DNA of 58,933 bases, filler included, from Dugesia japonica (taxonomy: Eukaryota): assembly GCA_001938525.1 (NCBI GenBank). It is 5 parts of 5 records of this genome, joined end to end, with 100 filler letters (N's around TTAATTAATTAA, not from the genome) between each part and the next. Parts side by side here need not be neighbours in the genome. Positions count along the whole stretch, not along the records: positions 8,917 to 17,134 come from MQRL01300197.1; 4 more parts are not named here. One strand, 5' to 3'. Both the position numbers and the translations under genes were made by a program. The notes below the pieces were generated by a model. The model was given only the letters and a program-made list of their open reading frames with translations, did no database searches and was not told where the DNA came from. Position 1 is the first letter of the stretch; each line of letters opens with the position of its first letter. Shown one piece after another: positions 1 to 56,342 of this stretch.

Positions 1-74
1 ATTCGGCTCCGGCCTTAGAGAGAATTTACAAAAATTCAATTGTTCTTTTCATGAATAAATTTTAGCTATAATAG

Positions 75-465
75 GTGTAAGAACTGTTCTTCTTCTCAGT
101 TTTAACTATGAGGGGTAACAAGTTTTTCGCTTTAAAATTTGAGATGANNNNNNNNNNNNNNNAGCTTCCAGAGCTCTCGAAAGCAGTGAAAATTCTCTCT
201 CTTTTTTAAAGTGTAAGAACTGTTCTTCTCAGTTTTAACTATGAGAGGTAACAAGTTTTTCGCTTTAAAATTTGAGATGAATCTGTCATTCGTCGAGCTT
301 CCAGAGCTTACGAAAGCAGTGAAAATTCTCTCTCTTTTTTTAAAGTGTAAGAACTGTTCTTCTCAGTTTTAACTATGAGGGGTACCAAGTTTTTCGCTTT
401 AAAATTTGAGATGATTCTGTCATTGACGGAGTCTGGAGAACTCTTGAAAGCAGTGAAATCTCTTT
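75..465. repeat. ~135-bp tandem repeat, 3 copies (probably subterminal to a Polinton-like end)
   Basis: Unit GTGTAAGAACTGTTCTTCTCAGTTTTAACTATGAG...GAAAGCAGTGAAA starts at 75, 211 and 345. Confidence 0.9.
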
Positions 466-8476: not shown

Positions 8477-8860
8477 AATTAAAAAGAATTAAATGTAATT
8501 TAATTAATAATGATAAAAATTAATTTGAATATTGATGTGAAAAAAATGTCATACAATATATTAGCAGAAATTAGATTACATTTTATCAAAGAAATTTTAT
8601 GATCTTGACATTTTATTAAAAATAATTTTGGTACCATATAAAAATTTATTTGTTAAATAAACCGTCAATTATTTAAAGAAATATTCGATTTATTAATAAA
8701 TGATTTGTCTATTAAACTTTCACCAATTAAATTATACATATTTAAATAATGTCGGCTTTCTAGTTAACGACAGATTAAATTAACAGATTAAGTGCATATT
8801 AAGTTATCGAAATAACNNNNNNNNNNNNNNNNNNNNNNNNNNNNNNNNNNNNNNNNNNNN

Positions 8861-8872
8861 TTAATTAATTAA
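8861..8872. other. Artificial scaffold spacer TTAATTAATTAA inside N run
   Basis: Identical 12-mer, stop codons in all six frames, centred in ~100-bp N gaps; also at 17179-17190, 32583-32594, 48394-48405. Confidence 0.9.
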
Positions 8873-9339
8873 NNNNNNNNNNNNNNNNNNNNNNNNNNNN
8901 NNNNNNNNNNNNNNNNTAATCAATTCTTCGTTTTCTCGACAGCTTTTTACAACTTTATTTTCTTTTTATTGTTTTATCCTAGATTTTATTTGATATTTCT
9001 TACACTTTTAACTTCAGTTATTATTATTTTATAATCATTTCCTGATCATTTCACAGATAAATATTTCTTTTATTTCGTATTATTTTCTTATTCATTTTCT
9101 TATTAACCTTTAATTTATTTCCTTCACTGTTTTTCATATTTCATAAAAGGCTGTTTCAGCCCAACATGTTTTTATAAAATGTACTTGATTTAATTCACTC
9201 TTGGATGAATTTTTCAGATATTCCAAAGCTATTCCAACAATTGAAAGACATTTGTTTTCTATTTGTTTTGAATTTTCCAATAGAGTTTTTATTATTCTAA
9301 TTTTTTTTGTTTTAAATTTGTACTTTTATTATGTTTTCT

Positions 9340-10249
9340 ACTTTATAGCTTTTATTTTGTGATCATATTTGTATTGATCTGCTGCTGTTTGAGGGATAAC
9401 TGGACTGGACTGACTTGGCGACATCTGAGGTGTGAATGACTGGTAGAGAGTATTGTGAAGGAACTCTAAATATCGTATTTCTTCTTCTTTCTCTTTTAAC
9501 TTCTTCTCCTATACGGATTCTAACTTTTTTCTCTTTTCCGTAAGTTTTTTCACTTAAGCTCGTAGGCCTTCGATCATTTTGTCCTTCTTTTCATCCCATT
9601 CTTTGGCGACCTCTAATTCTTTATTTGTTACAATGTTTTTCTTCATATTTGTCGTAGCTTGCTGCATGATTTGCGGGGCCAATATGGCGTCTAATCTATA
9701 ATTGTCCTTATTTGCCGCTATCAGCCCACTTTGTATATTCATTTCAGTTCACATTTCTGATTTTTGACTCTTTGCACTGTTTAACTTTCCAGCATCTGAT
9801 TTCAACTTGCTTAGTTTCCCTTGCACAACTTTCAGGTATGTCTCGAGATCCTCTACCTGATTTTTCTTTTTATCCGTCTTAACCACTTTATTTTTATTGT
9901 AGTCTCTAAGCATGGCCATCTGTTTCCAATGCTGGGCTTCTTATATAATATTTCTGTTTGGGTGTCGCACATATCTTAGTTCGTTCACTTTTCTTTGATT
10001 TTTCGTCCTCTATCTGGTCCACTTGTTCGTTTATTATATGATTCAAGAGTCGATTTCGTAATTTTAATGATATCGTTTCTGCTTCTACTTTTGGGCCTGT
10101 CGGATTGTGGCCGCCTATTGGTATTGAGTTTTGCTGCAAGGAATTTTCTTTAGGTCTTCCTCTTTAACAGGTTCTCCGGAGTATAATTTGTTTCTCAGAC
10201 GTCCGATCTGATCTCGAAGTATAGTTGGGTTGTTTGACAATTCTTGCAT
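9340..10249 (-). pseudogene. Degenerate ~300-aa Lys/Glu-rich, probably coiled-coil accessory ORF of unknown function
   Basis: Begins MQELSNNPTILRDQIGRLRNKLYSGE at 10249 and continues through track ORFs 9906-10139 and 9554-9742 with frameshifts and stops, to ...EIRYLEFLHNTLYQSFTPQMSPSQSSP. Confidence 0.5.
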
Positions 10250-10364
10250 CTAAATGATAAAGCGATTATAATTTGTTATAATTATTAAATATGATTAACT
10301 ATTAAATCGATTAGTCATTATGAATAAAATGAATGTGGATTAATATTTAATTAATATTTTAATA

Positions 10365-10473
10365 TTTTAATATTTTAATAATTTAATATTTAATTAATAA
10401 CCCGTTTAATAATGCTTATATTTTAATATTTTAATAATTTAATATTTAATTAATAACCCGTTTAATAATGCTT
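10365..10473. repeat. ~56-bp AT-rich tandem duplication within an intron-like spacer (10250-10764)
   Basis: TTTTAATATTTTAATAATTTAATATTTAATTAATAACCCGTTTAATAATGCTT occurs twice. Confidence 0.8.
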
Positions 10474-10996
10474 TGGGAATGCTTAATAACTCAATGCTTG
10501 TTCAATTTATAGTTATTAATTTTATGATTATTAACTCGTTTAATAATTTATTTTAATGATAAATCGATTATCATTATTATACCTTGTTGACCCATAGTTT
10601 TATAATTTAGTTTTCTTGTGTAATTATTAATTCGTTTAATAATGCTTCAACACTCGTTAACTAAAGTGACATGATTATCATTAAATAATTAGATTATCAA
10701 ATCGTTTAATAACACATTATTAATGTATTTAATAATCCGTTAAAATATAATTGAATTTGTTACCTTTACTTTCAGTACTCAACTTTGATTCCTTTTATCT
10801 TCTGGATAATTGAGTTTTTGTATTTCTTATTTGGCACAACTTTGCAATTACTTTCACAATTCATTTTCTCGGTACATGATTTGTTTGGTATTTTTATTTG
10901 AAGATTTCTACTTTTACTGTTTTTGTATTTTTGGACTTCTTATGCTTTTGTTTTTTATAATTTACAACTTTATATATACATTTATAATTTACTTTC

Positions 10997-12373
10997 CTAA
11001 CCCACGTTCCTTATCTCGATGAATATGCTATCATTTTTTACGAAGTTTGATAGCACATTTTTAATTGTTATAAACGTTGGGGATCATGATCCTAAGTTCA
11101 TCTCGCATGTGGGTTTCTGTTAGGAGATCCAGCTTGGTTTGCATTCAAATGTTTCACCATGTCCTTCTGACCACCTGTCGTATCCTGGGGTTATTCTCAT
11201 ACTGAATTTGTTTGAGATCGACCATTTCAACTTGTCATCATATTTTTCTTTCCTTATTATAAAGAAAACATTTATATGGTTTCCTTTTCCTGCGCCATCC
11301 CCATGAGGATAAATTCTTAGAGACGCGAGGTAACCTTCTTTAAATAAGTAAAATGGTGGGCTGGTATACTGTCCATCTTTCTCGTCGGGGAAGGATCTTG
11401 CAATGACCAATTTGGCGAGAAAATCTTCTATTTGCCATATATAATGGCATACAGAATACTTGGCATCTGATAGTGCTGAGGGTAAAGATATAGTGGTTTG
11501 ACTTGAATTTTCTTTTAAAGCACTCCATAATTCGTTTTTAGTTTCGTGTATTTTGCTAGATAAAACGTATATCAATTGAAGGGTATGGTTCTTTAGATTT
11601 TCTTATTATTGGTTTATTCTCTGTTCTAAATTAGAAATGATAGCCTGGATATGTTCTTTTGCTTTGTTGAACATATATTTGTTTACTTTCATTCGGGTTC
11701 CTTTAAATTTACATAGATACGGGCATTCTTTAAGTTCTTTAATGCATGTTGATTTATGAGCACTCACTTTTACTAATTCTTCACAACAATTGTTGGAACA
11801 TTTAACTATGAGTTCCTGGCATACTTGTATTTTAATAGAATTCAGGTGATTCTTCATTAGTTTTCTGAGAATCAATCGGTTGCAATTTTCACATTTTACT
11901 TCTACCATGAGACATGATTCGTTAACACGATTCTCTTTGTCGAGTTTAAATAGTAGTGTTTTACACTTTTCGCACATTATAGGAACTGTAGAGCAGTTCT
12001 TTGTATGTTCTTCCAGATTCATTATCTTTTCTTCTAATTCACATTTTTGGTATGGGCAAGTTCCTTGTAGCTCTGCTACTTCTCTGGTTATTGCTCGGTC
12101 GAGTAGTACTTGAGTAACTTCTTCACATTCGATATTAAAACATTTATTTACGTTCTCTCTAAGGTGTTTACTGATGCATTGATAACAATATCTGCATTCA
12201 CAGCTAATTTACATCTGTTCAAGCATTAATAAATTGCATTTGGTACATTTGAACCGCGTTTCTATTTCTTCTGATGACTCGAGCTTTTGTATTAGTTTTA
12301 CAAAATTATCTACTTTCTTGGCAATAAGTGTGAAATCTGACTGAAGTATACTGATTGGATTTGTTTATTGCAT
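10997..12373 (-). pseudogene. TRAF: Intronless TNF-receptor-associated factor (TRAF2/3/5-like): RING, TRAF zinc fingers, coiled coil, MATH/TRAF-C; about 6 premature stops, no frameshift
   Basis: Single frame of 459 codons. RING CTKC...ISCECRYCYQC...CFNIEC; DRAITREVAELQGTCPYQKC; zinc fingers in ORF 11606-12022; MATH YIWQIEDF...TSPPFY..EGYL..LRIYPHGDGAGKGNHINVFFII.K..YDDKLKW; C-terminus QKPTCEMNLGS..PTFI...FVKNDSIFIEI. Confidence 0.92.
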
Positions 12374-12510
12374 CTGAATATTTACAATTTGTTAATTGTT
12401 TCCATAATTATAATTCTATTTATCAAAGACTACGTAAATATAATAGAATTAAGATTTGTAAATTAGTCAGGCCTATACATTTATTTACAGTTGATTTTTA
12501 TTCTTTCGTT

Positions 12511-13008
12511 TTATTTTGGCAACGTTGAAAAAGATATGAATTGTTCATTCTCTTTACGTCTTTGTTCCTTATTAATCATTATATCTAATAAACTTCGTGT
12601 GCCTCTCGTATCTTCTAGTTCAATCTGCAATGCAACATTGTAATTTGTAATAGTTTGGATTTCTATTTTATTATTATCAATGATGTTTCTCTGCTGTTGG
12701 ATGATATTCAAGTAATAGTGGTGGGTATTGGTTGCTTCCAATAATAGGCGACGAGCTTCTAATAAAGCCGATTCTGTTGAAACTATTAATGAATTTAAAG
12801 TACCACAATGCTGTTCCCACAATTATTCTGTTGTAATATTTTTATACACTGGTACATCTAAGAGATTTATTTCATTTGCTGCTATAACTGGTGGATGAGG
12901 AAATACTATTTGAGGATTAAGTGACCTGAGAAAATAAATTCTGTTACTTATATTTGACTGTACACTGGAATGAAAGACTAGTCGTAGTAATTGATTAGCT
13001 TCTGCCAT
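12511..13008 (-). pseudogene. ~165-aa accessory ORF with C-terminal coiled coil, one premature stop
   Basis: Track ORFs 12823-13008 and 12511-12822 abut in the same frame across one TAA; heptad-like ALLEARRLLLEA...IELEDTR. Confidence 0.6.
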
Positions 13009-13109
13009 CTACAATATTATTTTTTTTATCAATTTTCTATATTATTTTCATAAATACAAACATATTCTGCATTGATATACTAATAATGTTTTGTGCAATA
13101 GGAGTTTAT

Positions 13110-15498
13110 TCATGTGAACTTGTATTGCGGTGGTCCACCAATATCATTTGACCACCTGATTCCGGCCCTATCGAATGGTAGTTGCTAATTATTATTTTCT
13201 AGGTTTCGCATTGCCACAGGAAGTTTTAATCCTTTATGCTGCCCTCTGAGTCGTTTGACTACTAATATTGTTGCTATTATACAGATTATGCAAAACATTA
13301 TTGAGGTTGTTGCTGCTAAAACATTCGCCTTCTAGTTCTCCATCTTTGATGTATCTATTGGAATTGCTGAGCTTATTTTTATTATTCCCGCATTGTAAAT
13401 TGATGCAATTTTCGTAGCGTTTGGTTTAGGCATATTTTTATTATTTGTTCTAGAAACGCTTCTGGTTTTGGCGTTAAAACATTAACTTCGTCTATTTGTG
13501 GTTCTGCTTGTTTTGTTTCTGCTTCTTTTACCGTTGTTATCTTTTTCGTAGTTAGTTTTTTGTGGTTGGTACCTTGGCTGTAGATGACACATTTTTATAT
13601 TTTATTTGTTGGATTGGTATTTGTCTGTTCTTCATTATAACAAGCTGTACGAATAATTTATTGTTAAATAGTACGAATTCTCTAATTAAACTGCCTCTCT
13701 CGAATCCTGAGCGTTCTACTGCTAATCTGTTCGTTGTATTTAACCATTGTTCAAGAATGTGGATCTGTTTGACTATTAAATTATTTGCATCTAGACTAGT
13801 CCACTCTTTTTTCGCAGTTTTGCTTGAATGTCTTATAAATGTGTTTATTTTCGTTTTCATTGTTATGGATTGCTTTTTTAGTTTCATAATATGTGGTTTG
13901 GTATCCTGCATTCGATATCGTTCAACGTTTATTTCTTGTCCAGAGAAATTCAGGACCATCACATATATTTTGTTGTAATTGAATTTTATTAGTTGTACGA
14001 TTATTATTGTTTCTGCCATTGAACATCCATTGGATTTTCCAATCCTGAATGTCTGCTTGGTTGTGGTAGTATACATATTCCGCTACTGTGTCATTATACT
14101 AGTTTCATATTCATTAGTGGACTTATTGTATTTGCCCACTCTTGTAAACCCTTCGTGGTTATCCCAACTGTCGTTGTTGTATTGGAATTTTACTATTTGT
14201 ACTGGTTCTGAAGCTTACAATTTTATATTCAGTCCTTCTTTGTTGTTTTTGAGTAACTTTCTTGTTTGCGGAGGCAATGCTGATCCACCTGCTATTCGAG
14301 TAAGAAACCATCTACCTGTTGATGCTCAGTATTTTTTAGCACGACTAGATTCTCGTTTTAAATGTTTCATTCGTTCTTCTACACAGTGATGGCAAAGTGT
14401 TTTTCAACATTTGGGTGATATTCGGATATTTTCGAGAAATTTATTATCACATATCGTTCAAGCTCCATTTTCTTGTCTGATTTCGGGATAATTAGCTAAT
14501 AGTTCTAAGTCATTTTGATGTTGATCCCATTCTTTGTCTTGCTTTTCAAATGCATGTTTCTTGTTGGATTTACGAATTTGGGTTTGCATTGTATTCGTTT
14601 CTTTAGTGTTTGATGTCACCTATTGAGTCTCTTGATCTTTGACTTTCTTGTTCTTTATTTCCTTGGAGGTTCTCTTTGGTGGCAATAGGGTTTCCATGCT
14701 CACTTTTTTTAATTTTACATTAATAGATCGTTCTATGCGTATTATTATCTCAGTAGTGCTTTTTAGACCGTTTATACATATTTATTTTGCGTATTTCATA
14801 GTAATTGGTAGTGGTTTGTTGATTGTTGTATCATCATAAAGACATCTTTTCTTTTGTTCATTTGCTTCATGAATTCGTTTAATTTCTTCTCTGACTCCAA
14901 ATGCAGAAGTTTCTAACTTACTTCTGACAGTTATTAGACAGTGGTAACACATTTTCTTTAATTATTTTCTGCTTATTGGCAATGTTGACGGTCGTAATTT
15001 TATATAAACTAGACATTTGATCTGCTTTGACTCAATTGGTTTTTCGGTTTTGTTTTCTTTTTTATTCTGTCGATCTTTGGTTTTCTGTTGAGTTATTGTC
15101 TGGTTGAAACCTGTGGTAATTGGAGTTATAATATTCTTTTTGCTGAAGTCGACTTCTCTGTTTTCTTGAAACTTTGACTGCTTAAAGTTCAGATACCATT
15201 CTGCCTGTTTAAATCCAACCGCTCTAATTTCTTGTCATTTTGCTTGCATAAAATTAGCTGCTTTAACTGTTTCTATTTTGTTGTCATTAGACAGTAAGCA
15301 CAATAATTCTTTATACATTCTTTGTTGATAGGAAGTTGTTTAGGTACTTCGCGGTATCTAAAACATTTATTGTCTTTGGATTGGTGTCTGTTTTTATCCT
15401 GTGTACGGTACAGTTCTCTCCATTATAGAGCTACCGTTGACTCTGATACCATTAATTCCTATCAAAAATAAATATTACCTTGGTAAAAATAAAATTAT
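13110..15498 (-). pseudogene. Degenerate env-like type-I membrane protein (~800 codons)
   Basis: Hydrophobic signal-like IILFLPR*YLFLIGING (15498-15448); Cys-containing ectodomain broken by stops and frameshifts (includes ORF 13552-14076); Thr-rich stalk; TM VLAATTSIMFCIICIIATILVV (13322-13257) followed by KRLR; tail ending GGPPQYKFT*. Lies directly 3' of the integrase. Confidence 0.6.
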
Positions 15499-15609
15499 AC
15501 TGTTCTTTGATCTATTAGTATTTTATTTATTCGTGTGACACCACATTTTTTACAAGAGTTTGTTTCTGATTTTTTGCTGACTTGTAACATACAAATTTTG
15601 TTCTGGCTG

Positions 15610-16890
15610 AGATCTGAGATCGTAATCTTTAACTTCTGTTGGTGATTGAATTCGTATTTCTTGTGGTTTTCGTCCACGTTTTAATCCTTTATACGGCAAT
15701 TTTTGCTCATTCTACGAGTCACTCGATGAGTATTGAGTTGGTTCTGTTCCTTCTAATTCTTGTACTTCTGTTTCTTAGATTTACGTGATGATTTGTTCAT
15801 CTGTCACTTTTGTTAACGCTTCCTTTTTGCATCGATTTACATGAATCCATAGTAGTTTCTGGAGTATTTTACCAACTAATCTGACTTTTATATTGGTTTC
15901 TGTGACTGCTAATACTTCGTAAGGCACTTTACCTAGTTTCCTATCCTTTGCTATCGTTCCGATTTCTATTTCCGGAGTATTAACTAATACTCTATCTTCT
16001 TCCTTGAACGCATGGGGTTTCGCTTTCTTGTCATGATAATCTTTGACACTTTCTTGATAATATTTGATATTTAATCGTGCTTCATTCCAGATCTCCTGCA
16101 TTTCCTCTTTCATTCGAATGATATACTCTTCTTGTTCCATATACTATAATATTGGAGGCTGGTATTCCAAATCGATTAGTAAATTACATTTTCTTTCAAA
16201 AAATGGAGTGTATTTTGTAGCTAAGTGTACTTGTGTTCGATAAAAAATAGTACCAAATGTATAAATTGATCCCAGTCTTTCTGTTTTCTGTCGACATAAC
16301 AATATATCTTATTAATTAAGGTTCAGCTAAATCTTTCTACTAGCCCGTCTATTTGTGAATGATATGGTGATGTTCTCAATTTTAATATTGGAAAATATCT
16401 AATGACTTCTGTAAAAATGTCACTCATGAAATTTCTGCCTTGATCAGTTAGGATTTTCTTAGGTGTACAATATCTGCTTCAAATTTACTTTACAAATATT
16501 TCTGCTATCGTTATGGTTTTTTGATTTTTCATTGGAAATGCTTCAGGGTATTTAGATAGATAATCCATACATACAAGAATGTATGAGCTTCCATCTACAG
16601 TTTCGGGTAATGTTCCGACTACGTCCATCGCCATGATCTCCATCGGTTTAGTTAGTATTGGCATTGGTTTTGATGATGCCTTTTCTAAAGTTCCTGTTCC
16701 TCTTCTGGAAGCGACTATTGACAATGTGCTATCCAATCCTTCACATCTTGAGCGATTCTTGACCAATAGTATTTGCGTCTTAATTTGGCTTCGGTTTTTC
16801 TTGCTGACATATGTCCTCCGACGACTTCATTATGGTATTTTTGTAAAATTCGTTCTCTGTGCAATTTTGGTACAATTATCTCCATTCTGT
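15610..16890 (-). pseudogene. Ty3/Gypsy integrase (zinc-binding, DDE core, GPY/F-like C-terminus), disrupted
   Basis: IVPKLHRERILQKYHNEVVGGHMSARKT..LRRKYYW..IAQDVKDWIAHC; MDVVGTLP...YILVCMDYLSKYPEAFP; PKKILTDQGRNF...TSPYH.Q.DGLVERF; ORF 15781-16140 with VPYEV and WIHVNRCK; in-frame YDLRS at 15624-15610. Confidence 0.93.
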
Positions 16891-17404
16891 GCCATTAACC
16901 GTCCCTTTTTAATTGTGTAACGACATCCATTTTCAGTAAGTGTTCTCTCATTTCTGGGTCACATAGTGATATGTATAATATCAACGATATTATTAACAAT
17001 AGCAATGGTGTTATAATCGATAGTAATATTAGCAATAATAATAATTTTAAATAATCTTATTAATATCTGATACTAATAATACTAATAGTAAGAGTATGAA
17101 TAATAATAATATTAGTAATAATAATAAGAAGAAGNNNNNNNNNNNNNNNNNNNNNNNNNNNNNNNNNNNNNNNNNNNNTTAATTAATTAANNNNNNNNNN
17201 NNNNNNNNNNNNNNNNNNNNNNNNNNNNNNNNNNTATTATTCTTTTATTGATTTGCCACAAAAAAATTCCCCGAATCAATCTGTCTATTTAATTTACCTC
17301 ACACCGACCACTGGCTTAGATTATAGATTGTTAAATGAAGTTGCAGAAAGACCAATTTTTCCTATTCCAAACAATAAAGATTTAGACGATCTCATCAAGA
17401 ATAT

Positions 17405-46076: not shown

Positions 46077-48449
46077 AGATTCTTCACAAAAAATTCTTTT
46101 TATATTTCATCTTTGACTCAGCAGTGATAAGAAGGTTTAAAACACGCCAAAAATAATATTTAAACGTAACAGCTGCAATATCATTTCAATCATTCAAAAA
46201 ATACTATTTAAGATTGTTTTAAATTAGAGTTAAATTTTTTGCCATCTCAGTTGAAATTTTTCTATAAAATATTTTTTTAATTTAAATTAATTAAAAAATG
46301 ATAGAATTAAATTATTAAAAACTATCAGTAATAATTGTTAACTTTTTATTTATTTTTTTAAAATCAAACTTTTAAATAGTGAAATTTTATAAATATTTAA
46401 CTACATTTAATTTATTATTTTTAAAATAATTTAAAATAATTTGTTTTTTAAATTTCTAATTAATTTTTAAATTTATTTAGAAAAGAAAGGAATACAAATT
46501 TTTAATTTTTTAAAAAAATAATTGGTTTATCTAAAATTTATTAGAAGATTTGTTTTAAAATTGTAAATAAGGTAATTAAATTAAATAAATGATTTAACAA
46601 AGTAATTAATACACTTAAATTTTCTTGCAATAATTTATATTTAGAAATAAATTAAAAAATTTTAAAAATTATGTAAATTTCAGTTGAGATGCAAATTATT
46701 TGGTTTTGTTTAATTTGATTTAAAAAAACAAATATTTGTTCTTTGTTTTATAATATATTTTAAATTGAAACGTCTACTCTTTTAAATTCAACAATGAGTG
46801 TCTTAGACTCATCTAACATTATTTAATATACTCTGATTCTATAACATCGCGATATTCAAACAATATTTAATAATATCACTATTGAATAAAAAATAAAACT
46901 TTGATTGTCACTTGAGTTCNNNNNNNCTATCAATTTTTACGATTTATTTTCAATTACGATGAAATATATCTGATCAATATTATAAATAACAAACACATTC
47001 AATCTACAAACTGAGAAATACAAATAATAAAATCAACGTTTCATCCTTTTGATGAAAAATCCTTTTAAAAAATTACCAATTAGATATTTTATATTTGAAA
47101 AAAAAAATTTCAATTCCAGTAATGAAAAATTAAATCAATAAATCAATTCGAAAACAACAGTTAATAATAACAATAATTATATCAGGATAGCCTGATTGAA
47201 TCAAAATATAATATCTGCGCGTGTTCCAGATATTTGATTATATTTATATAGCGGTAAAAATACCTCAACGTTATGTAAGTTAATTTTTTCAAACAATAAA
47301 ATCGAAAAACATTTTGTGTTTAAAATAAATATTTAAGAGTGCTCTTAACATATTTGTTTTTTTAATTTGCTTACATAAAAACAAAATTGAAATTTCTTTT
47401 TGGTTTTTGTTGAGATATAAATTTGAAATTAAATGTTATAAACAAAAACAGGTGCAATCAATCAATTCAGAGAGTATTTACATATAGGAAATCGATTTAA
47501 TGAATATTGCCGGTGATCATAGTAATAGAAGGAAAGGAATCAATATAATGAATAACAGAAAGTCGATATACTAAATATTGAATTGTTGTTTATCGTAGAT
47601 AGTTTCTGGATCAGGACGAATCTAAAAGAATTTGAAATAGTCTCTTTTTGAGTCCAAATAGTCTTTTGCGGTTATCATCGGGAATCTTCTGAATATTCAG
47701 TATTTTGTGGTGCATGCTTATAACCATATTTTAATTTAATGTATATTGTATTATATTTTATGATTTACTCGATCTCAACGAAATTGTTTTAATAATAAAG
47801 TCAACAATACACGAGTCTGGGATATATAAATTTAATATATGGGTAATATTTGGTGATCCTGTGTAATATTAATGTTTATTATAGATAGAATGATAAAATA
47901 AACATATTTTATAGCTATGTTTTTCAAATTTTTAAAAGTATTTTTGGAGGCACAGTCGGGATCTACTAGATTTGAAAGGAAATGAAGGAATGAAAATAGA
48001 GAATACCCGGATTTATTTGGAAGAAAATGCAATATCTGGAATAATTTGAATAGGAAATGCTAGAAGGAAAATGAAATTAAACCAAATTACAAGATGCAAA
48101 GAGAAGAAAGCAAACTGAAAAGGTTCTAGAAATAGTTCTAGTTTTACTGAAAAAGCTTGCAAGTTCCAATAATTGACTTAGTGATCGAATTATTTGTTAT
48201 TATTAAATCATCGATCCGTTTGTTGAATAATGTTGGAATACTAGCTATTCGAAACCATCATTATTAATTTGTCACTGATTGTTAGCCTGTTTTGAAGATC
48301 AAGTTATTGGAGAGAAAATTTTATTAATATTTTATTTTATTTGAAAATGNNNNNNNNNNNNNNNNNNNNNNNNNNNNNNNNNNNNNNNNNNNNTTAATTA
48401 ATTAANNNNNNNNNNNNNNNNNNNNNNNNNNNNNNNNNNNNNNNNNNNN

Positions 48450-51751: not shown

Positions 51752-52754
51752 GGGTTAATTACAAAATAACCCACTTGAAAAATTTTATAACCCACATTTA
51801 AGTTTTTTTTACAAAAATAACCCACAATCAAANNTTTTTTTATGAAAATAACCTACTTGAAAAAATATATGACTTAAATTAAACTCAATATTGACATTGG
51901 CTTCAAAAGTAATATAATTTTAAGACAATAAAAATATAAAAGATTTGTTATGACAGTTTTAAAATAAAATAAAGATAAAAAATTAATTTTTATTTTTATT
52001 TCTTATTTTCCGGGCACTTATTCTTATTATGTCCTTGTTTTCTGCAAATACTGCATTTATTAGCCTTTAATAAAGCGACTTCTCCAGCAGATTTCTTCCT
52101 TTTGGATTTCTTAGGACGTCCAGCACGATTAGTTTTATAAGCATTAACAACATTACATTTTAAAATCATATCTGGATCGATATATTTCATAGTATTTGCA
52201 TATAAAAGTTTTAATGAGTTCAGAGCTCTTTTGGGGCTAATAAAAATTTTCTTATCAAATCCATTAATCATTATTGCCGCCGCATATGCGTGTTTACATG
52301 GAAATATTTCAATCCAGCTATCATTCCACAACTGCAACTAAGTTTATTAAAATCCACTATTCTATAAATTGTTGATGTACTCGTACTAGTAACTTCAAAC
52401 ACATTACCAATGGATTTAGATGCAGCGTTTAAGAATTTGCCTCGTGAAGCAGATAACAAGGACATAATAAGAATAAGTGCCCGGAAAATAAGAAATAAAA
52501 ATCAAAAATTTTTTTTATCTGTATTTTATTTTAAAACTGTCATTAATATATCTTTTATAATTTTATTGTCTTAAAATTATAATACTTTTGAAGCCAATGT
52601 TTAATTGAGTTTAATTTTGAAGTTTAATTTAAGTCATATGTTTTTTCAAGTAGGTTATTTTCATAAATAAAATTTGATTGTGGGTTATTTTTGTAAAAAA
52701 AACTTAAATGTGGGTTTTAAAATTTTTTAAGTGGGTTATTTTTGTAATTAACTC
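51752..52754 (-). mobile_element. MULE/Mutator-like element, 1003 bp, ~290-bp inverted arms, 9-bp TSD
   Basis: Arms 51752-~52037 and ~52457-52754; TSD TTAATTTTA / TTAACTTTA (8 of 9); repeated AACCCAC motifs in the arms. Confidence 0.9.
51996..52456 (-). pseudogene. MULE transposase C-terminal fragment (SWIM finger and CCHC knuckle)
   Basis: YRIVDFNKLSCSCG / FPCKHAYAA (SWIM, frameshifted), GRPKKSKRKKS, CSICRKQGHNKNKCP. Confidence 0.88.
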
Positions 52755-54323: not shown

Positions 54324-56342
54324 TTTATGGGGTATTATTAACTAAATTAATAAGTCAGTTGTTTAAATATTATAATAAATCTTTACTTAACATTTGAATT
54401 CTTATTACTGTATTCTGAAATCCGATGTTGAAGATAGAATAACTGGCGACTACGCCAAAAATATTAATAACAAGATATCAAGAGAAAAAATTAATTATTG
54501 ATTCACTTTCGAAGAAACCACAAGACTTGTTAAGTTTCAATNTTCGAAAATATGATGNACNAAATTTTGAAGAAGCTACAAAATAGATTACAGATATTGA
54601 ANAATGGCTGCCAGTAAATAATTTGTATTTAATGAGTGCATTCCATTTATTACTATCTGATGAGACTGTTGGTTTATAGAAAGATTTTACAACCAATTCC
54701 ACAACAAAAGATTAAGCAAAATCTTGGTTTATCGATACATCCACAATATAAAAATTCGATTTCAGATATGTTTGTCGAATTAGCTGGAATTAAGCAACAA
54801 GATAATGAAAGATTTACAACGTTCAAGATAAAACCTCGTTTGGATATTTTTATCCAGAATTAAATCGTGTCGAAATAAGAAATTATGTTATTTCAAAACG
54901 ATCAAAAGGTTCTGCTTTAGAAGATAAACTAATTTAAAAACCGAAAATGAGCATTGAAGAACAAAATTCAGTTGAATCAATTACAAAATTCAGTCATAAT
55001 TCTGAGAGAAATTCGGGAAGTAATTTTTCATCTGGACTTATAATTTCTAATAGAAATTTTGAAATATTTAATAATAGAAATAACTAGAACAATGAAAATT
55101 CAAGATATCAACCATCAGTTTCAATGAAGCATATTACAAGAAAATTGTATAATAAATACAATGGATTGCACAACCAAAAGATGAAATTTTAAAACCAGGT
55201 CAATGTTATTGTTGTGAAGAAAGAGATCATTTAGGTTTTGAATGTCCATTAAAGAACAAGTGTTTGATATGTGAAAAAGAAGAACATTTATTCAGAAATT
55301 GTCACTTATTGAATAATCGGAATAGGAATTTTAATAAGCCTATATTATGTATTTATGATGAAAATAATGAAGAGTATTGTGAAGATGAAATAGTAAATCA
55401 TGATATTGAAGAACAAAAAAACCAGAACAACCCTGTTACTTACATTTCGTACGTGTGGTTGAATCAATAAATGATCCTGTAAATCAAAATGATATGAAGA
55501 ATAATGCGATGAACCAGACGAGTGATGGAAGGCAGTGGAGTAGTGTGGAAGTTGAAAATGTTGCAATTAAAATGTTGTCGGACTCAGGAGCTGCGATAAA
55601 TAAAAATTGTGAATAAAAAGCGTTGGGAGAAGATTGGAAAACCGTATTTATTAGATACGAATATTATGCTCAGTGGTGTATTTTCTAGAATGAGTGAAAA
55701 GCCGTTGGGATCTGTGTCAGTAAATGTGAGATGGAACGTTTAGATTCGATTAGTAAATATATTAATATTAATTTTTCTAAATTTCATTGGTGGAATAGAC
55801 ATAATGAAGAGTTTTGGAATAAAACTAGTAGAAATAAACAATATTGATACTTCTATAATCAAAAACAATCATTCAGATACAGAAAGAATCAGAATTGCCT
55901 TAGAATATTTCAATAATCAAAACAACAATACATTGAAAAATTTGATAAAAATCTATGGAAACATTTTTATAGATTGAAATTCGATCTGGGTCATACAACA
56001 TTGATAAAGCATGAAATAAAAGTAAATAGTGCACCAGTACTGATACAACCCAGATGTCAACCAATGCACTTAGAATCAAAAATCGACGAACTAGTAGAAA
56101 ATATAATCAGAAAGAAAAATGATTTTCAATATGAAGGACTATTTCAGATAATTAGATATATTTATCCTCATCAAGTGGAATTCAGATGGAATTAAACAAC
56201 GAAGAATAAAATGGTTAAAGAAGTGGACAGTTTCTTAAAGAAAGGGAAAGTTATGGCGTATTATTAATTAAAATATTATTTAACTATTTATATTATAATA
56301 AATCTTTGCTAAGTGTGTTACATTTGAATTCTTATTAATGTA
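54324..56342 (+). mobile_element. Internally deleted Ty3/Gypsy LTR retrotransposon (~2 kb) with short LTRs
   Basis: Diverged direct repeats TTATGG.GTATTATTAA...TATTATAATAAATCTTT...ACATTTGAATTCTTATTA.TGTA at ~54325 and ~56251; PBS-like TGGCGAC at 54444; PPT AAAGAAAGGGAAAG before 56251. Confidence 0.8.
54500..56195 (+). pseudogene. Degenerate gag-protease-RT start fused to integrase tail
   Basis: Two CCHC knuckles CYCCEERDHLGFEC and CLICEKEEHLFRNC (~55204-55302); protease LSDSGAAIN (~55575); DLGHTTLIKHEIKVNSAPV.IQPR (pre-RT) running into YEGLFQII (GPF-like). Confidence 0.8.

What the first reader, a model, noticed from the sequence alone, without database searches (positions are those of the whole stretch)
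13110..15498. Unclassified env-like membrane protein with Thr-rich stalk and PPxY tail
Seen: signal-like hydrophobic stretch (15498-15448), CxxC-type motifs (CYHC, CHHC) in the ectodomain, Thr/Lys-rich juxtamembrane region, a 22-aa TM followed by KRLR, and a 48-aa tail ending GGPPQYKFT (PPQY at 13133-13122). Known: PPxY binds NEDD4-family WW domains and acts as a late-budding or trafficking motif; invertebrate LTR elements gained env genes independently from several virus groups. I cannot assign this ectodomain to a known fusogen class by eye. It could be a new fusogen/attachment protein or a receptor mimic acting with the neighbouring TRAF.
Basis: partly seen in the sequence, partly recalled or inferred. 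Interest (0 to 1): 0.7.

Follow-up and report, generated by a model that had tools for sequence, protein, structure and literature searches.

The report
Retrotransposon membrane protein beside captured TRAF
A decayed copy of an abundant jumping gene carries, after its integrase, a gene for an unclassified protein with one membrane anchor and four cysteine repeats next to a captured TRAF signalling gene; it likely worked as a receptor-like accessory protein that recruits the host's ubiquitin machinery, rather than as a fusion protein.

Summary
The motifs are real and lie in a real but decayed gene of about 811 codons (15546-13113, minus strand; 13 in-frame stops, 4 frameshifts). It sits between a Gypsy-type integrase and a full-length TRAF gene in a high-copy element of an AT-rich genome, probably a planarian (inferred from the resemblance to Burro elements). 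New here: the cysteines form four internal repeats with RING-finger-like spacing (Lys at the His position, no last cysteine pair). The terminal stop recurs in register in a diverged copy. PPQY overlaps a PxQxxF TRAF6-type motif. Only one homolog, a 156-aa fragment, was found among 1.84 billion cluster representatives. No fusogen feature was found, but the folds were too poor to exclude one. Best reading (0.4): an accessory type I membrane protein whose tail recruits NEDD4-type ligases and/or TRAFs; binding is untested. TRAF/MATH cargo is already known from Burro; this membrane protein was not found in print. The scan holds no look-alike sequence, but noted a different post-integrase surface protein in this genome.

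The parts
15780..17000 (-). Gypsy-type integrase, broken over three frames (HHCC zinc domain, DDE core, GPY/F-like C-terminal part); cut off upstream by the N-linker at 17135
   Evidence: Motifs seen in translation (motif names recalled); Pfam rve E=0.0034, below its cut-off
15549..15780 (-). Pol C-terminal extension in the same frame class as the ATG and signal of the membrane gene (4 stops); fused or separate gene not resolved
15448..15546 (-). ATG at 15546 and signal-like hydrophobic stretch 15498-15448, with stops at 15525 and 15477
15285..15398 (-). Cys repeat R1 (own frame, no stop, 4 Cys)
13552..15282 (-). Main frame (P0001, 576 codons, 9 internal stops): repeats R2 (14982), R3 (14811), R4 (14427), then a predicted beta-meander and helix (residues about 380-525, low confidence)
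   Evidence: homolog P0011 67% identical over residues 137-292
13404..13590 (-). Thr/Lys-rich patch (about 13590-13500) and stalk, across a frameshift
13257..13322 (-). 22-residue transmembrane segment; net charge 0 before it, +5 after it (KRLR)
13110..13256 (-). 48-codon tail with one internal stop; ends in PPxY (13133-13122) overlapping PxQxxF; terminal stop 13112-13110
   Evidence: terminal stop in register in two diverged contigs (table 7)
12511..13008 (-). Small accessory ORF (165 codons, 1 stop), no family found
11000..12367 (-). Intronless full-length TRAF-like gene (RING, TRAF zinc fingers, coiled coil, MATH), 5 internal stops
   Evidence: Pfam PF21355 E=2e-21; homolog P0006 51-52% identical, whose best PDB hits are TRAF2, 5, 3, 1
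9338..10252 (-). Lys-rich, coiled-coil-like decayed ORF (11 stops in 303 codons) after an AT-rich spacer; probably part of the same element, not tested
   Evidence: no Pfam match

Best explanation
This is a decayed gene of a high-copy Gypsy-type element, placed between the integrase and a captured TRAF, for a protein with a signal-like start, four cysteine repeats, one membrane anchor and a short tail, which likely acted as a receptor-like accessory protein that recruits host ubiquitin machinery and likely was not the element's fusogen. Shown: the coding frame, the repeats, the TM, the tail motifs, the neighbours and the many copies. Inferred steps: (1) The signal and the positive charge after the TM give type I topology, with the repeats outside and the tail inside. 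(2) PPxY binds WW domains of NEDD4-type ligases (established for other proteins, recalled), giving ubiquitin-driven sorting. (3) The overlapping PxQxxF end recruits a TRAF, host or element-encoded, so the element could switch on survival signalling in the cell that expresses it, as EBV LMP1 does. This matches the apoptosis and ubiquitin cargo described for Burro elements.
For: Coding frame: 9 stops in 576 codons vs 43.8 expected. A natural homolog is 67% identical and 85% similar without gaps, and reads open across three of this copy's stops. Family: all 30 bins of 10800-16990 are covered in 4 of 4 runs laid, with 4,620 and 9,801 contigs in the two DNA runs, most under 95% alike. Four deletion joints link the pol end, this gene and the TRAF in other copies (tables 5, 5c). 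C-terminus: two contigs of run X5 align up to 13112, carry a different stop codon in register and diverge just beyond it. Topology: charge 0 before vs +5 after the TM. Motifs: PPxY p about 0.0009 and Px[QE]xx[FYDE] p about 0.004 in the last 10 residues by shuffle. The TRAF6 consensus PxQ/ExxF/Y/D/E and the C-terminal LMP1 motif are from PMC10776578 (passages). The intact TRAF homolog aligns to TRAF2 at E=1e-24, including the SSF and SGCP segments (their role in the peptide groove is recalled). Burro elements carry MATH/TRAF, BIR and BCL2-like domains and place env between gag and pol (PMC6431247 section 7). Flatworm errantiviruses are GAG-ENV-POL (PMC13524379 passages). So a post-integrase TM gene need not be the fusogen.
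Against: No binding was tested or modelled. The tail fits the TRAF6-type motif, but the MATH hits of the element's TRAF homolog are TRAF2, 5, 3, 1 and 4, with TRAF6 matched only in the N-terminal part; the tail lacks the T/S of PxQxT. The motif p-values are after the fact, from one copy that mostly differs by 5-20% from its relatives. Letter-level conservation of PPxY in other copies was not seen. The repeats do not fit the six-cysteine TNFR pattern and have RING-like spacing, which suggests cytosolic metal binding and sits badly with a lumenal position. N-glycosylation sequons are not enriched (7 vs 6.3 +/- 2.2). The homolog ends exactly where this copy has a stop, which may mean a stop shared between copies. 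The joints rest on one contig each at 80% likeness, one with only 21 letters on a side. The host taxon and the gag/RT part are not known.
Confidence: 0.4

Rival explanations
1. It is an accessory surface or attachment protein for particle release or cell-to-cell spread, working with a separate fusogen upstream of pol. PPxY acts as a budding or sorting signal and the TRAF is independent cargo.
For: Type I anatomy with a stalk. GAG-ENV-POL order in flatworm errantiviruses (PMC13524379 passages) and env inside ORF1 of Burro. An earlier unchecked note describes another post-integrase surface protein in this genome.
Against: No adhesion or receptor-binding fold was found (folds inconclusive). Late-domain PPxY motifs usually sit on Gag or matrix proteins (recalled). 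The upstream env cannot be seen: the piece ends at 17134.
Confidence: 0.25
2. The repeats are cytosolic, degenerate RING fingers (a ubiquitin-pathway decoy or scaffold). The region is either two genes or a membrane protein with another topology.
For: The RING core pattern with the His position free occurs 3 times in 117,862 residues: once in the TRAF RING and twice in these repeats (shuffle mean 0.0009). The form with Lys at that position is in R1, R2, R4 and in the homolog's R3. Helices are predicted after R2 and R4 (low confidence). R4 vs the element's TRAF RING gives p=0.004. The homolog ends at one of this copy's stops.
Against: A RING profile gave E >= 0.05, profile-profile probability was 0.3%, and Pfam gave no RING match for 4 of 4 repeats. 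There is no His and no last cysteine pair. R4's spacing runs across the stop in question. No second signal sequence exists in the main frame (maximum 19-residue hydropathy 1.39).
Confidence: 0.15
3. It is a fusogen of a class not yet described, in the usual env position after pol.
For: Position after the integrase, size of about 810 residues, signal plus TM plus short tail. No relative in known families, so a new class is not excluded.
Against: One RxxR, followed by a polar stretch (mean hydropathy -0.35); no internal hydrophobic peptide; 9 of 10 main-frame cysteines lie in the repeats. PMC5408684 (passages) warns that TM, cleavage and glycosylation features do not identify env, and shows post-pol ORFs with other functions.
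Confidence: 0.12
4. It is a captured host gene carried along without a role for the element.
For: This copy is dead. RNA reads over the gene are few and none is 99% or more alike.
Against: The homolog shows conservative change (85% similar at 67% identity, no gaps). Diverged copies keep the terminal stop and diverge just past it. No host homolog was found.
Confidence: 0.08

Closest known systems
Burro / GYPSM1 giant Gypsy-like LTR retrotransposons of planarians (PMC6431247, section 7 read; Burro1 B-IAP function seen only second-hand in passages of PMC13465017)
   Same: Gypsy-type element in very many copies that carries MATH/TRAF, RING-type and coiled-coil cargo, accessory ORFs and tandem repeats; cargo tied to ubiquitination and apoptosis.
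   Different: In Burro, MATH lies inside ORF1 or in an upstream accessory ORF, and env lies between gag and pol. Here a full TRAF and a TM gene lie downstream of the integrase. The section read describes no such membrane protein. No sequence comparison with Burro was possible.
Platyhelminthes GAG-ENV-POL errantiviruses with HSV/gB-type env (PMC13524379, passages and supplement searches)
   Same: Ty3/gypsy elements with membrane proteins; ectodomain flanked by signal and TM.
   Different: Their env precedes pol and has a five-domain class III fold. The paper has 0 occurrences of TRAF, and 0 of 5 short motifs from this element occur in its 7 supplements (long cells are cut and no integrase sequences are listed).
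EBV LMP1 (PMC10776578, passages) and LMP2A (recalled)
   Same: Viral membrane proteins that mimic receptors: LMP1 ends in PxQxxY and binds TRAF6 directly; LMP2A uses PY motifs for NEDD4-type ligases (recalled).
   Different: No homology; LMP1 is multi-pass without an ectodomain (recalled). This is a works-like comparison only.
TNF receptor superfamily (CD40, TNFR2; recalled)
   Same: Layout: signal, four Cys-rich repeats, stalk, one TM, short tail with a TRAF-type motif.
   Different: The repeats have 3-4 cysteines with RING-like spacing, lie 57-128 residues apart and fail the six-cysteine pattern; no Pfam match.
sORF2/FAST-like proteins of MDG1-group retrotransposons (bioRxiv 10.1101/2025.03.14.642691, abstract and outline)
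   Same: Non-env TM protein of a Gypsy element used for spread.
   Different: sORF2 is a short protein; this one is about 810 residues with a large ectodomain.

Membership tests
Ty3/Gypsy LTR retrotransposon | DDE integrase with HHCC and GPY/F-like parts | tested here: met
   Motifs in translation; Pfam rve E=0.0034, below cut-off, on a 113-aa piece
Ty3/Gypsy LTR retrotransposon | RT and RNase H before the integrase; gag | not testable with these tools
   The piece ends at an N-linker at 17135; no genome held
Ty3/Gypsy LTR retrotransposon | Long terminal repeats and polypurine tract | tested here: inconclusive
   No LTR pair or purine run plus TG in the 8.2-kb piece, which is a fragment
Ty3/Gypsy LTR retrotransposon | Dispersed multi-copy family | tested here: met
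   4,620 and 9,801 contigs laid in two DNA runs, 30 of 30 bins
Burro elements | Carries MATH/TRAF | tested here: met
   feature from PMC6431247
Burro elements | Over 30 kb, giant ORF1 with env, BIR, BCL2-like and ankyrin domains; sequence kinship | not testable with these tools
   Upstream part missing; no Burro sequence at hand; none of these domains in the 8 pieces scanned
F-type (class I) env | Furin site followed by a hydrophobic fusion peptide | tested here: not met
   One RxxR followed by a polar stretch; maximum 19-residue hydropathy 1.39 in the main frame
F-type (class I) env | Fold with a trimeric coiled coil | tested here: inconclusive
   Models at pLDDT 33 and 39; searches uninformative
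HSV gB-type (class III) or class II env | Five-domain or beta-sheet fusogen fold with spread disulfides | tested here: inconclusive
   No Pfam or PDB sequence match; one Cys in the last 277 residues of the main frame; fold not resolved
TNF receptor superfamily | Six-cysteine repeats | tested here: not met
   Recalled pattern absent from P0001, P0011 and R1; no Pfam match
TNF receptor superfamily | Single TM with a cytoplasmic TRAF-binding motif | tested here: inconclusive
   TM and charge bias present; motif fits PxQ/ExxF/Y/D/E; binding untested
RING-HC finger | Core spacing C-x-H-x-hydrophobic-C-x2-C-hydrophobic | tested here: inconclusive
   Spacing met in R1 and R4 with Lys for His; strict pattern 0 matches (pattern recalled); profiles not significant
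RING-HC finger | Eight zinc ligands including the last cysteine pair | tested here: not met
   No last pair after any repeat in this copy (cysteine positions)
PPxY late-domain / NEDD4 ligand | PPxY on the cytosolic side | tested here: met
   13133-13122; side inferred from charge 0 vs +5
PPxY late-domain / NEDD4 ligand | Conserved among copies and binds WW domains | not testable with these tools
   One search shows only 40 of 1,419 differences, none inside the motif; no binding data
sORF2/FAST-like fusogens | Short TM protein | tested here: not met
   About 811 codons vs 'short' in the abstract

The most novel reading that the evidence does not exclude
A retrotransposon encodes its own receptor-adaptor pair: a TNF-receptor-like membrane protein, built independently from duplicated RING-derived cysteine repeats and ending in a joint NEDD4/TRAF-binding motif, plus the TRAF that reads it. 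This would give the element a self-contained survival-signalling module, and would make part of the unexplained planarian TRAF expansion transposon cargo.
Probability: 0.15. Interest if true: 0.85.

Novelty: new variant of a known kind. Interest (0 to 1): 0.5.

Why it matters
Complex Gypsy elements with apoptosis and ubiquitin cargo are known (Burro), and one is reported to help planarian stem cells survive (seen second-hand). None of the papers found describes an element with a receptor-like membrane protein beside a full TRAF. If the pair works together, a transposon would manipulate host signalling from the cell surface as herpesviruses do. If the host is a planarian, it also offers a testable source for the large TRAF/MATH expansion reported there (121 domains; PMC6109357 passages). 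The ectodomain has no relative in Pfam or PDB and only one fragment in 1.84 billion representatives, so it is a new protein family whatever it does.

Tried and rejected
Homolog searches with the main frame: 0 hits among 4,679 candidates of 317-1010 aa; 1 among 684 candidates of 30-316 aa; 1 in 1.84 billion representatives; proteins over 1010 aa were covered only. The TM-plus-tail piece was scanned against Pfam only. Locus scans found nothing: viral contigs, metagenome contigs. PDB sequence searches: one chance hit each for the main frame (E=0.86) and the repeat profile (E=1.4). Single-sequence folds had pLDDT 33.1 and 39.3. The best structural match for the beta region was Z 5.7, to propeller blades, within the range of common arrangements; viral Foldseek TM-scores by query were 0.12 or less. 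No fusogen was listed, which excludes nothing. ESM Atlas: P0011 best feature score 0.76 and TM 0.37 by query; small ORF 0.92 to unnamed clusters with low recognition; the main frame itself was not searched there. RING and TNFR readings were tested and not established. Two of three window references and two pieces were in the wrong frame; they were redone. No RNA holder listed. The tail-MATH complex was not modelled: the stop-free end of the tail is 24 residues, too short for the complex tool. Rejected: nested unrelated fragments (stop depletion over 576 codons); the Thr-rich patch as strong evidence (compositional). Earlier-finding look-ups by sequence, words and place were empty. The Grohme 2018 and Lee 2026 Burro papers are not held.

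Full report
Setting. The window is AT-rich (13-36% GC per kb) and repeat-laden. The finding lies in an 8.2-kb piece (8917-17134) bounded by two 100-nt N-linkers, so DNA beyond them need not be a genomic neighbour. No whole genome is held. On the minus strand the piece reads: integrase (about 17000-15780), pol tail, the membrane gene (15546-13113), a 165-codon ORF (13008-12511), a TRAF (12367-11000), an AT-rich spacer and a coiled-coil-like ORF (10252-9338). The integrase shows HHCC, DDE and GPY/F-like parts (names recalled) and a weak rve match (E=0.0034). The TRAF matches MATH at E=2e-21. The host is not identified; a planarian is inferred only from the resemblance to Burro elements and from unchecked earlier notes on this genome.

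Observation. Every motif is at the stated place, but the gene is broken: five pieces, 13 in-frame stops and 4 frameshifts in about 811 codons. The stops include one in the signal-like stretch, one before the TM and one in the tail. The main frame has 9 stops in 576 codons against 43.8 +/- 6.2 in 2000 shuffles, and 57 and 40 in the other two frames. The TRAF has 5 in 454, a similar rate. So this was a coding gene that decayed with the rest of the element. The Thr/Lys patch is short, about 60 codons before the TM, and partly compositional. Sequons are not enriched (7 vs 6.3).

Relatives. One homolog was found: P0011, 156 aa, an unnamed ENA record, the only hit among 1.84 billion representatives and among 684 short candidates; none among 4,679 near-length candidates. 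It is 67% identical and 85% similar, without gaps, and open across three of this copy's stops. It ends exactly where this copy has a stop, inside repeat R4; a contig end, chance or a shared stop cannot be told apart. The TRAF has an intact homolog, P0006 (51-52% identical). Of 24 runs listed I laid 4 on 10800-16990 at 80% likeness. All 30 bins were covered in all four. The runs gave 4,620 of 8.8 million contigs (X1), 9,801 of 10.0 million (X2), 1,414 of 29.1 million (X5) and 496 of 13.6 million reads (X8, a quarter of the run). Summed depth over the membrane gene was 2,061-49,648 in X1, against 6-18 for that run's single long contigs; the tool warns that this is no copy number, but the family is clearly large. 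Four deletion joints (15215-15793, 14713-15552, 13985-16826, 12063-13352) keep the order pol end, membrane gene, TRAF in other copies; each rests on one contig per run, and one has only 21 letters on a side. One of the 40 differences shown (of 1,419) falls in an internal stop, where nearly all laid depth differs from the window. Two X5 contigs align up to 13112, have a different stop codon in register and diverge in the next eight bases while staying in register further on; this marks the C-terminus as the real end. RNA reads in X8 come from relatives, not this copy (0 at 99% or more, 412 of 496 under 90%, 57% running on unlike); they are thin over the membrane gene and lie in both orientations.

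The cysteine repeats. Four repeats of about 35 residues carry [LI][PR]I-x5-K-x2-C. Pairwise scores against shuffles with two positions held fixed give p=0.0005 (R1-R2), 0.001 (R2-R4), 0.014 (R1-R4), 0.015 (R2-R3), 0.07 (R1-R3) and 0.10 (R3-R4). Their spacing is that of a RING-HC core with Lys at the His position. The pattern with that position free (recalled) occurs three times in 117,862 six-frame residues: once in the TRAF's own RING, and in R1 and R4 (shuffle mean 0.0009). The repeats are not independent and the pattern was relaxed after the fact. Profile tests did not confirm a RING, and no last cysteine pair follows. The six-cysteine TNFR pattern is absent. RING-like repeats on the side that the charge bias (0 vs +5) places in the lumen remain unexplained.

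Fusogen tests. There was no Pfam or PDB match. One RxxR is followed by a polar stretch, no internal hydrophobic peptide exists, and the last 277 residues of the main frame hold one cysteine. Single-sequence models were poor (pLDDT 33, 39); both suggest a beta-meander and helix at residues about 380-525, and the fold searches were uninformative. A class I fusogen is unlikely; classes II and III and a new class are not excluded.

The tail. PPxY falls in the last ten residues in about 0.0009 of shuffles, and Px[QE]xx[FYDE] in 0.004. The second is the extended TRAF6 consensus of PMC10776578 (passages), where the C-terminal LMP1 motif binds TRAF6 directly. The MATH domain of P0006, however, is closest to TRAF2, 5, 3 and 1, whose motif is PxQxT in the same paper. 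Direct pairing with the element's own TRAF is therefore possible but not favoured over a host TRAF or a WW-domain ligase. No complex was modelled.

Mechanism. Most likely (0.40) an accessory type I membrane protein whose tail recruits NEDD4-type ligases and/or TRAFs, so that the element tunes ubiquitin sorting and survival signalling in its host cell. The anatomy and context are shown; topology, partners and effect are inferred. Rivals: attachment or budding accessory protein with a fusogen upstream (0.25), cytosolic RING decoy or two genes (0.15), new fusogen (0.12), passenger gene (0.08).

Comparison and literature. PMC6431247 (passages and section 7): Burro elements carry MATH/TRAF, BIR, BCL2-like, RING and Smc-like domains and an F-like env between gag and pol; in one Burro-like element MATH is an upstream accessory ORF. 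PMC13524379 (passages; supplement list and searches; figures and cells over 400 characters not seen): flatworm errantiviruses are GAG-ENV-POL with gB-type env; TRAF is not mentioned. PMC13465017 (passages) reports the Burro1 B-IAP survival role from Lee et al. 2026, which is not held; Grohme 2018 is not held either. Either, or their supplements, may describe this gene. PMC5408684 (passages) warns against calling post-pol TM ORFs env. PMC6109357 (passages) reports the TRAF/MATH expansion in planarians. PMC8532177 and PMC11410931 (passages) added nothing on this gene. bioRxiv 2025.03.14.642691: abstract and outline only. PMC9597381: listing only. Searches listed no description of such a membrane gene beside a TRAF; the library lacks most subscription papers.

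Verdict. A real, decayed, multi-copy gene for a protein family without known relatives, in a known kind of cargo-laden Gypsy element: a new variant of a known kind, interest 0.5. The boldest reading not excluded, an element-encoded receptor and TRAF pair, has probability 0.15 and interest 0.85.

Noticed in passing
window 8817-8916, 17135-17234, 32539-32638, 48350-48449: Four 100-nt blocks of 44 N, 12 bases and 44 N (the 12 bases read as a TTAA repeat at the first). They look like artificial linkers, so the window is probably five separate pieces.
   Followed up: partly
window 12511-13008 (-): 165-codon ORF with one stop between the membrane gene and the TRAF; covered at high depth in other copies; no family.
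   Followed up: partly
window 9338-10252 (-): Decayed Lys-rich coiled-coil-like ORF with the same A-rich strand bias as the element; may correspond to the Smc-like cargo of Burro.
   Followed up: partly
window 10260-10800: 18% GC spacer with a perfect 56-bp tandem duplication.
   Followed up: no
window 15549-15780 (-): Pol tail with an RGRK and a YDLRS motif, in the same frame class as the ATG and signal of the membrane gene; a pol fusion is possible.
   Followed up: partly
window 34772-35376 (-): Broken ORFs with a Walker A motif that look like a Polinton/Maverick packaging ATPase (label recalled, not searched).
   Followed up: no
window 51996-52501 (-): Broken ORFs with SWIM-like and zinc-knuckle-like cysteine motifs, like a Mutator-type transposase end (label recalled).
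   Followed up: no
window 55156-56195 (+): Second Gypsy-like remnant: two CCHC knuckles, then protease- and RT-start-like pieces (labels recalled).
   Followed up: no
window 69-463 and 546-693: Three copies of a 133-bp unit and a short array of 42-43-bp units with an internal palindrome.
   Followed up: no
P0006 and window 12367-11000: The element's TRAF RING has Cys in place of the usual His in both the window copy and P0006, and P0006 is one uninterrupted 446-codon ORF on a 2-kb contig, as expected of retroelement cargo.
   Followed up: partly
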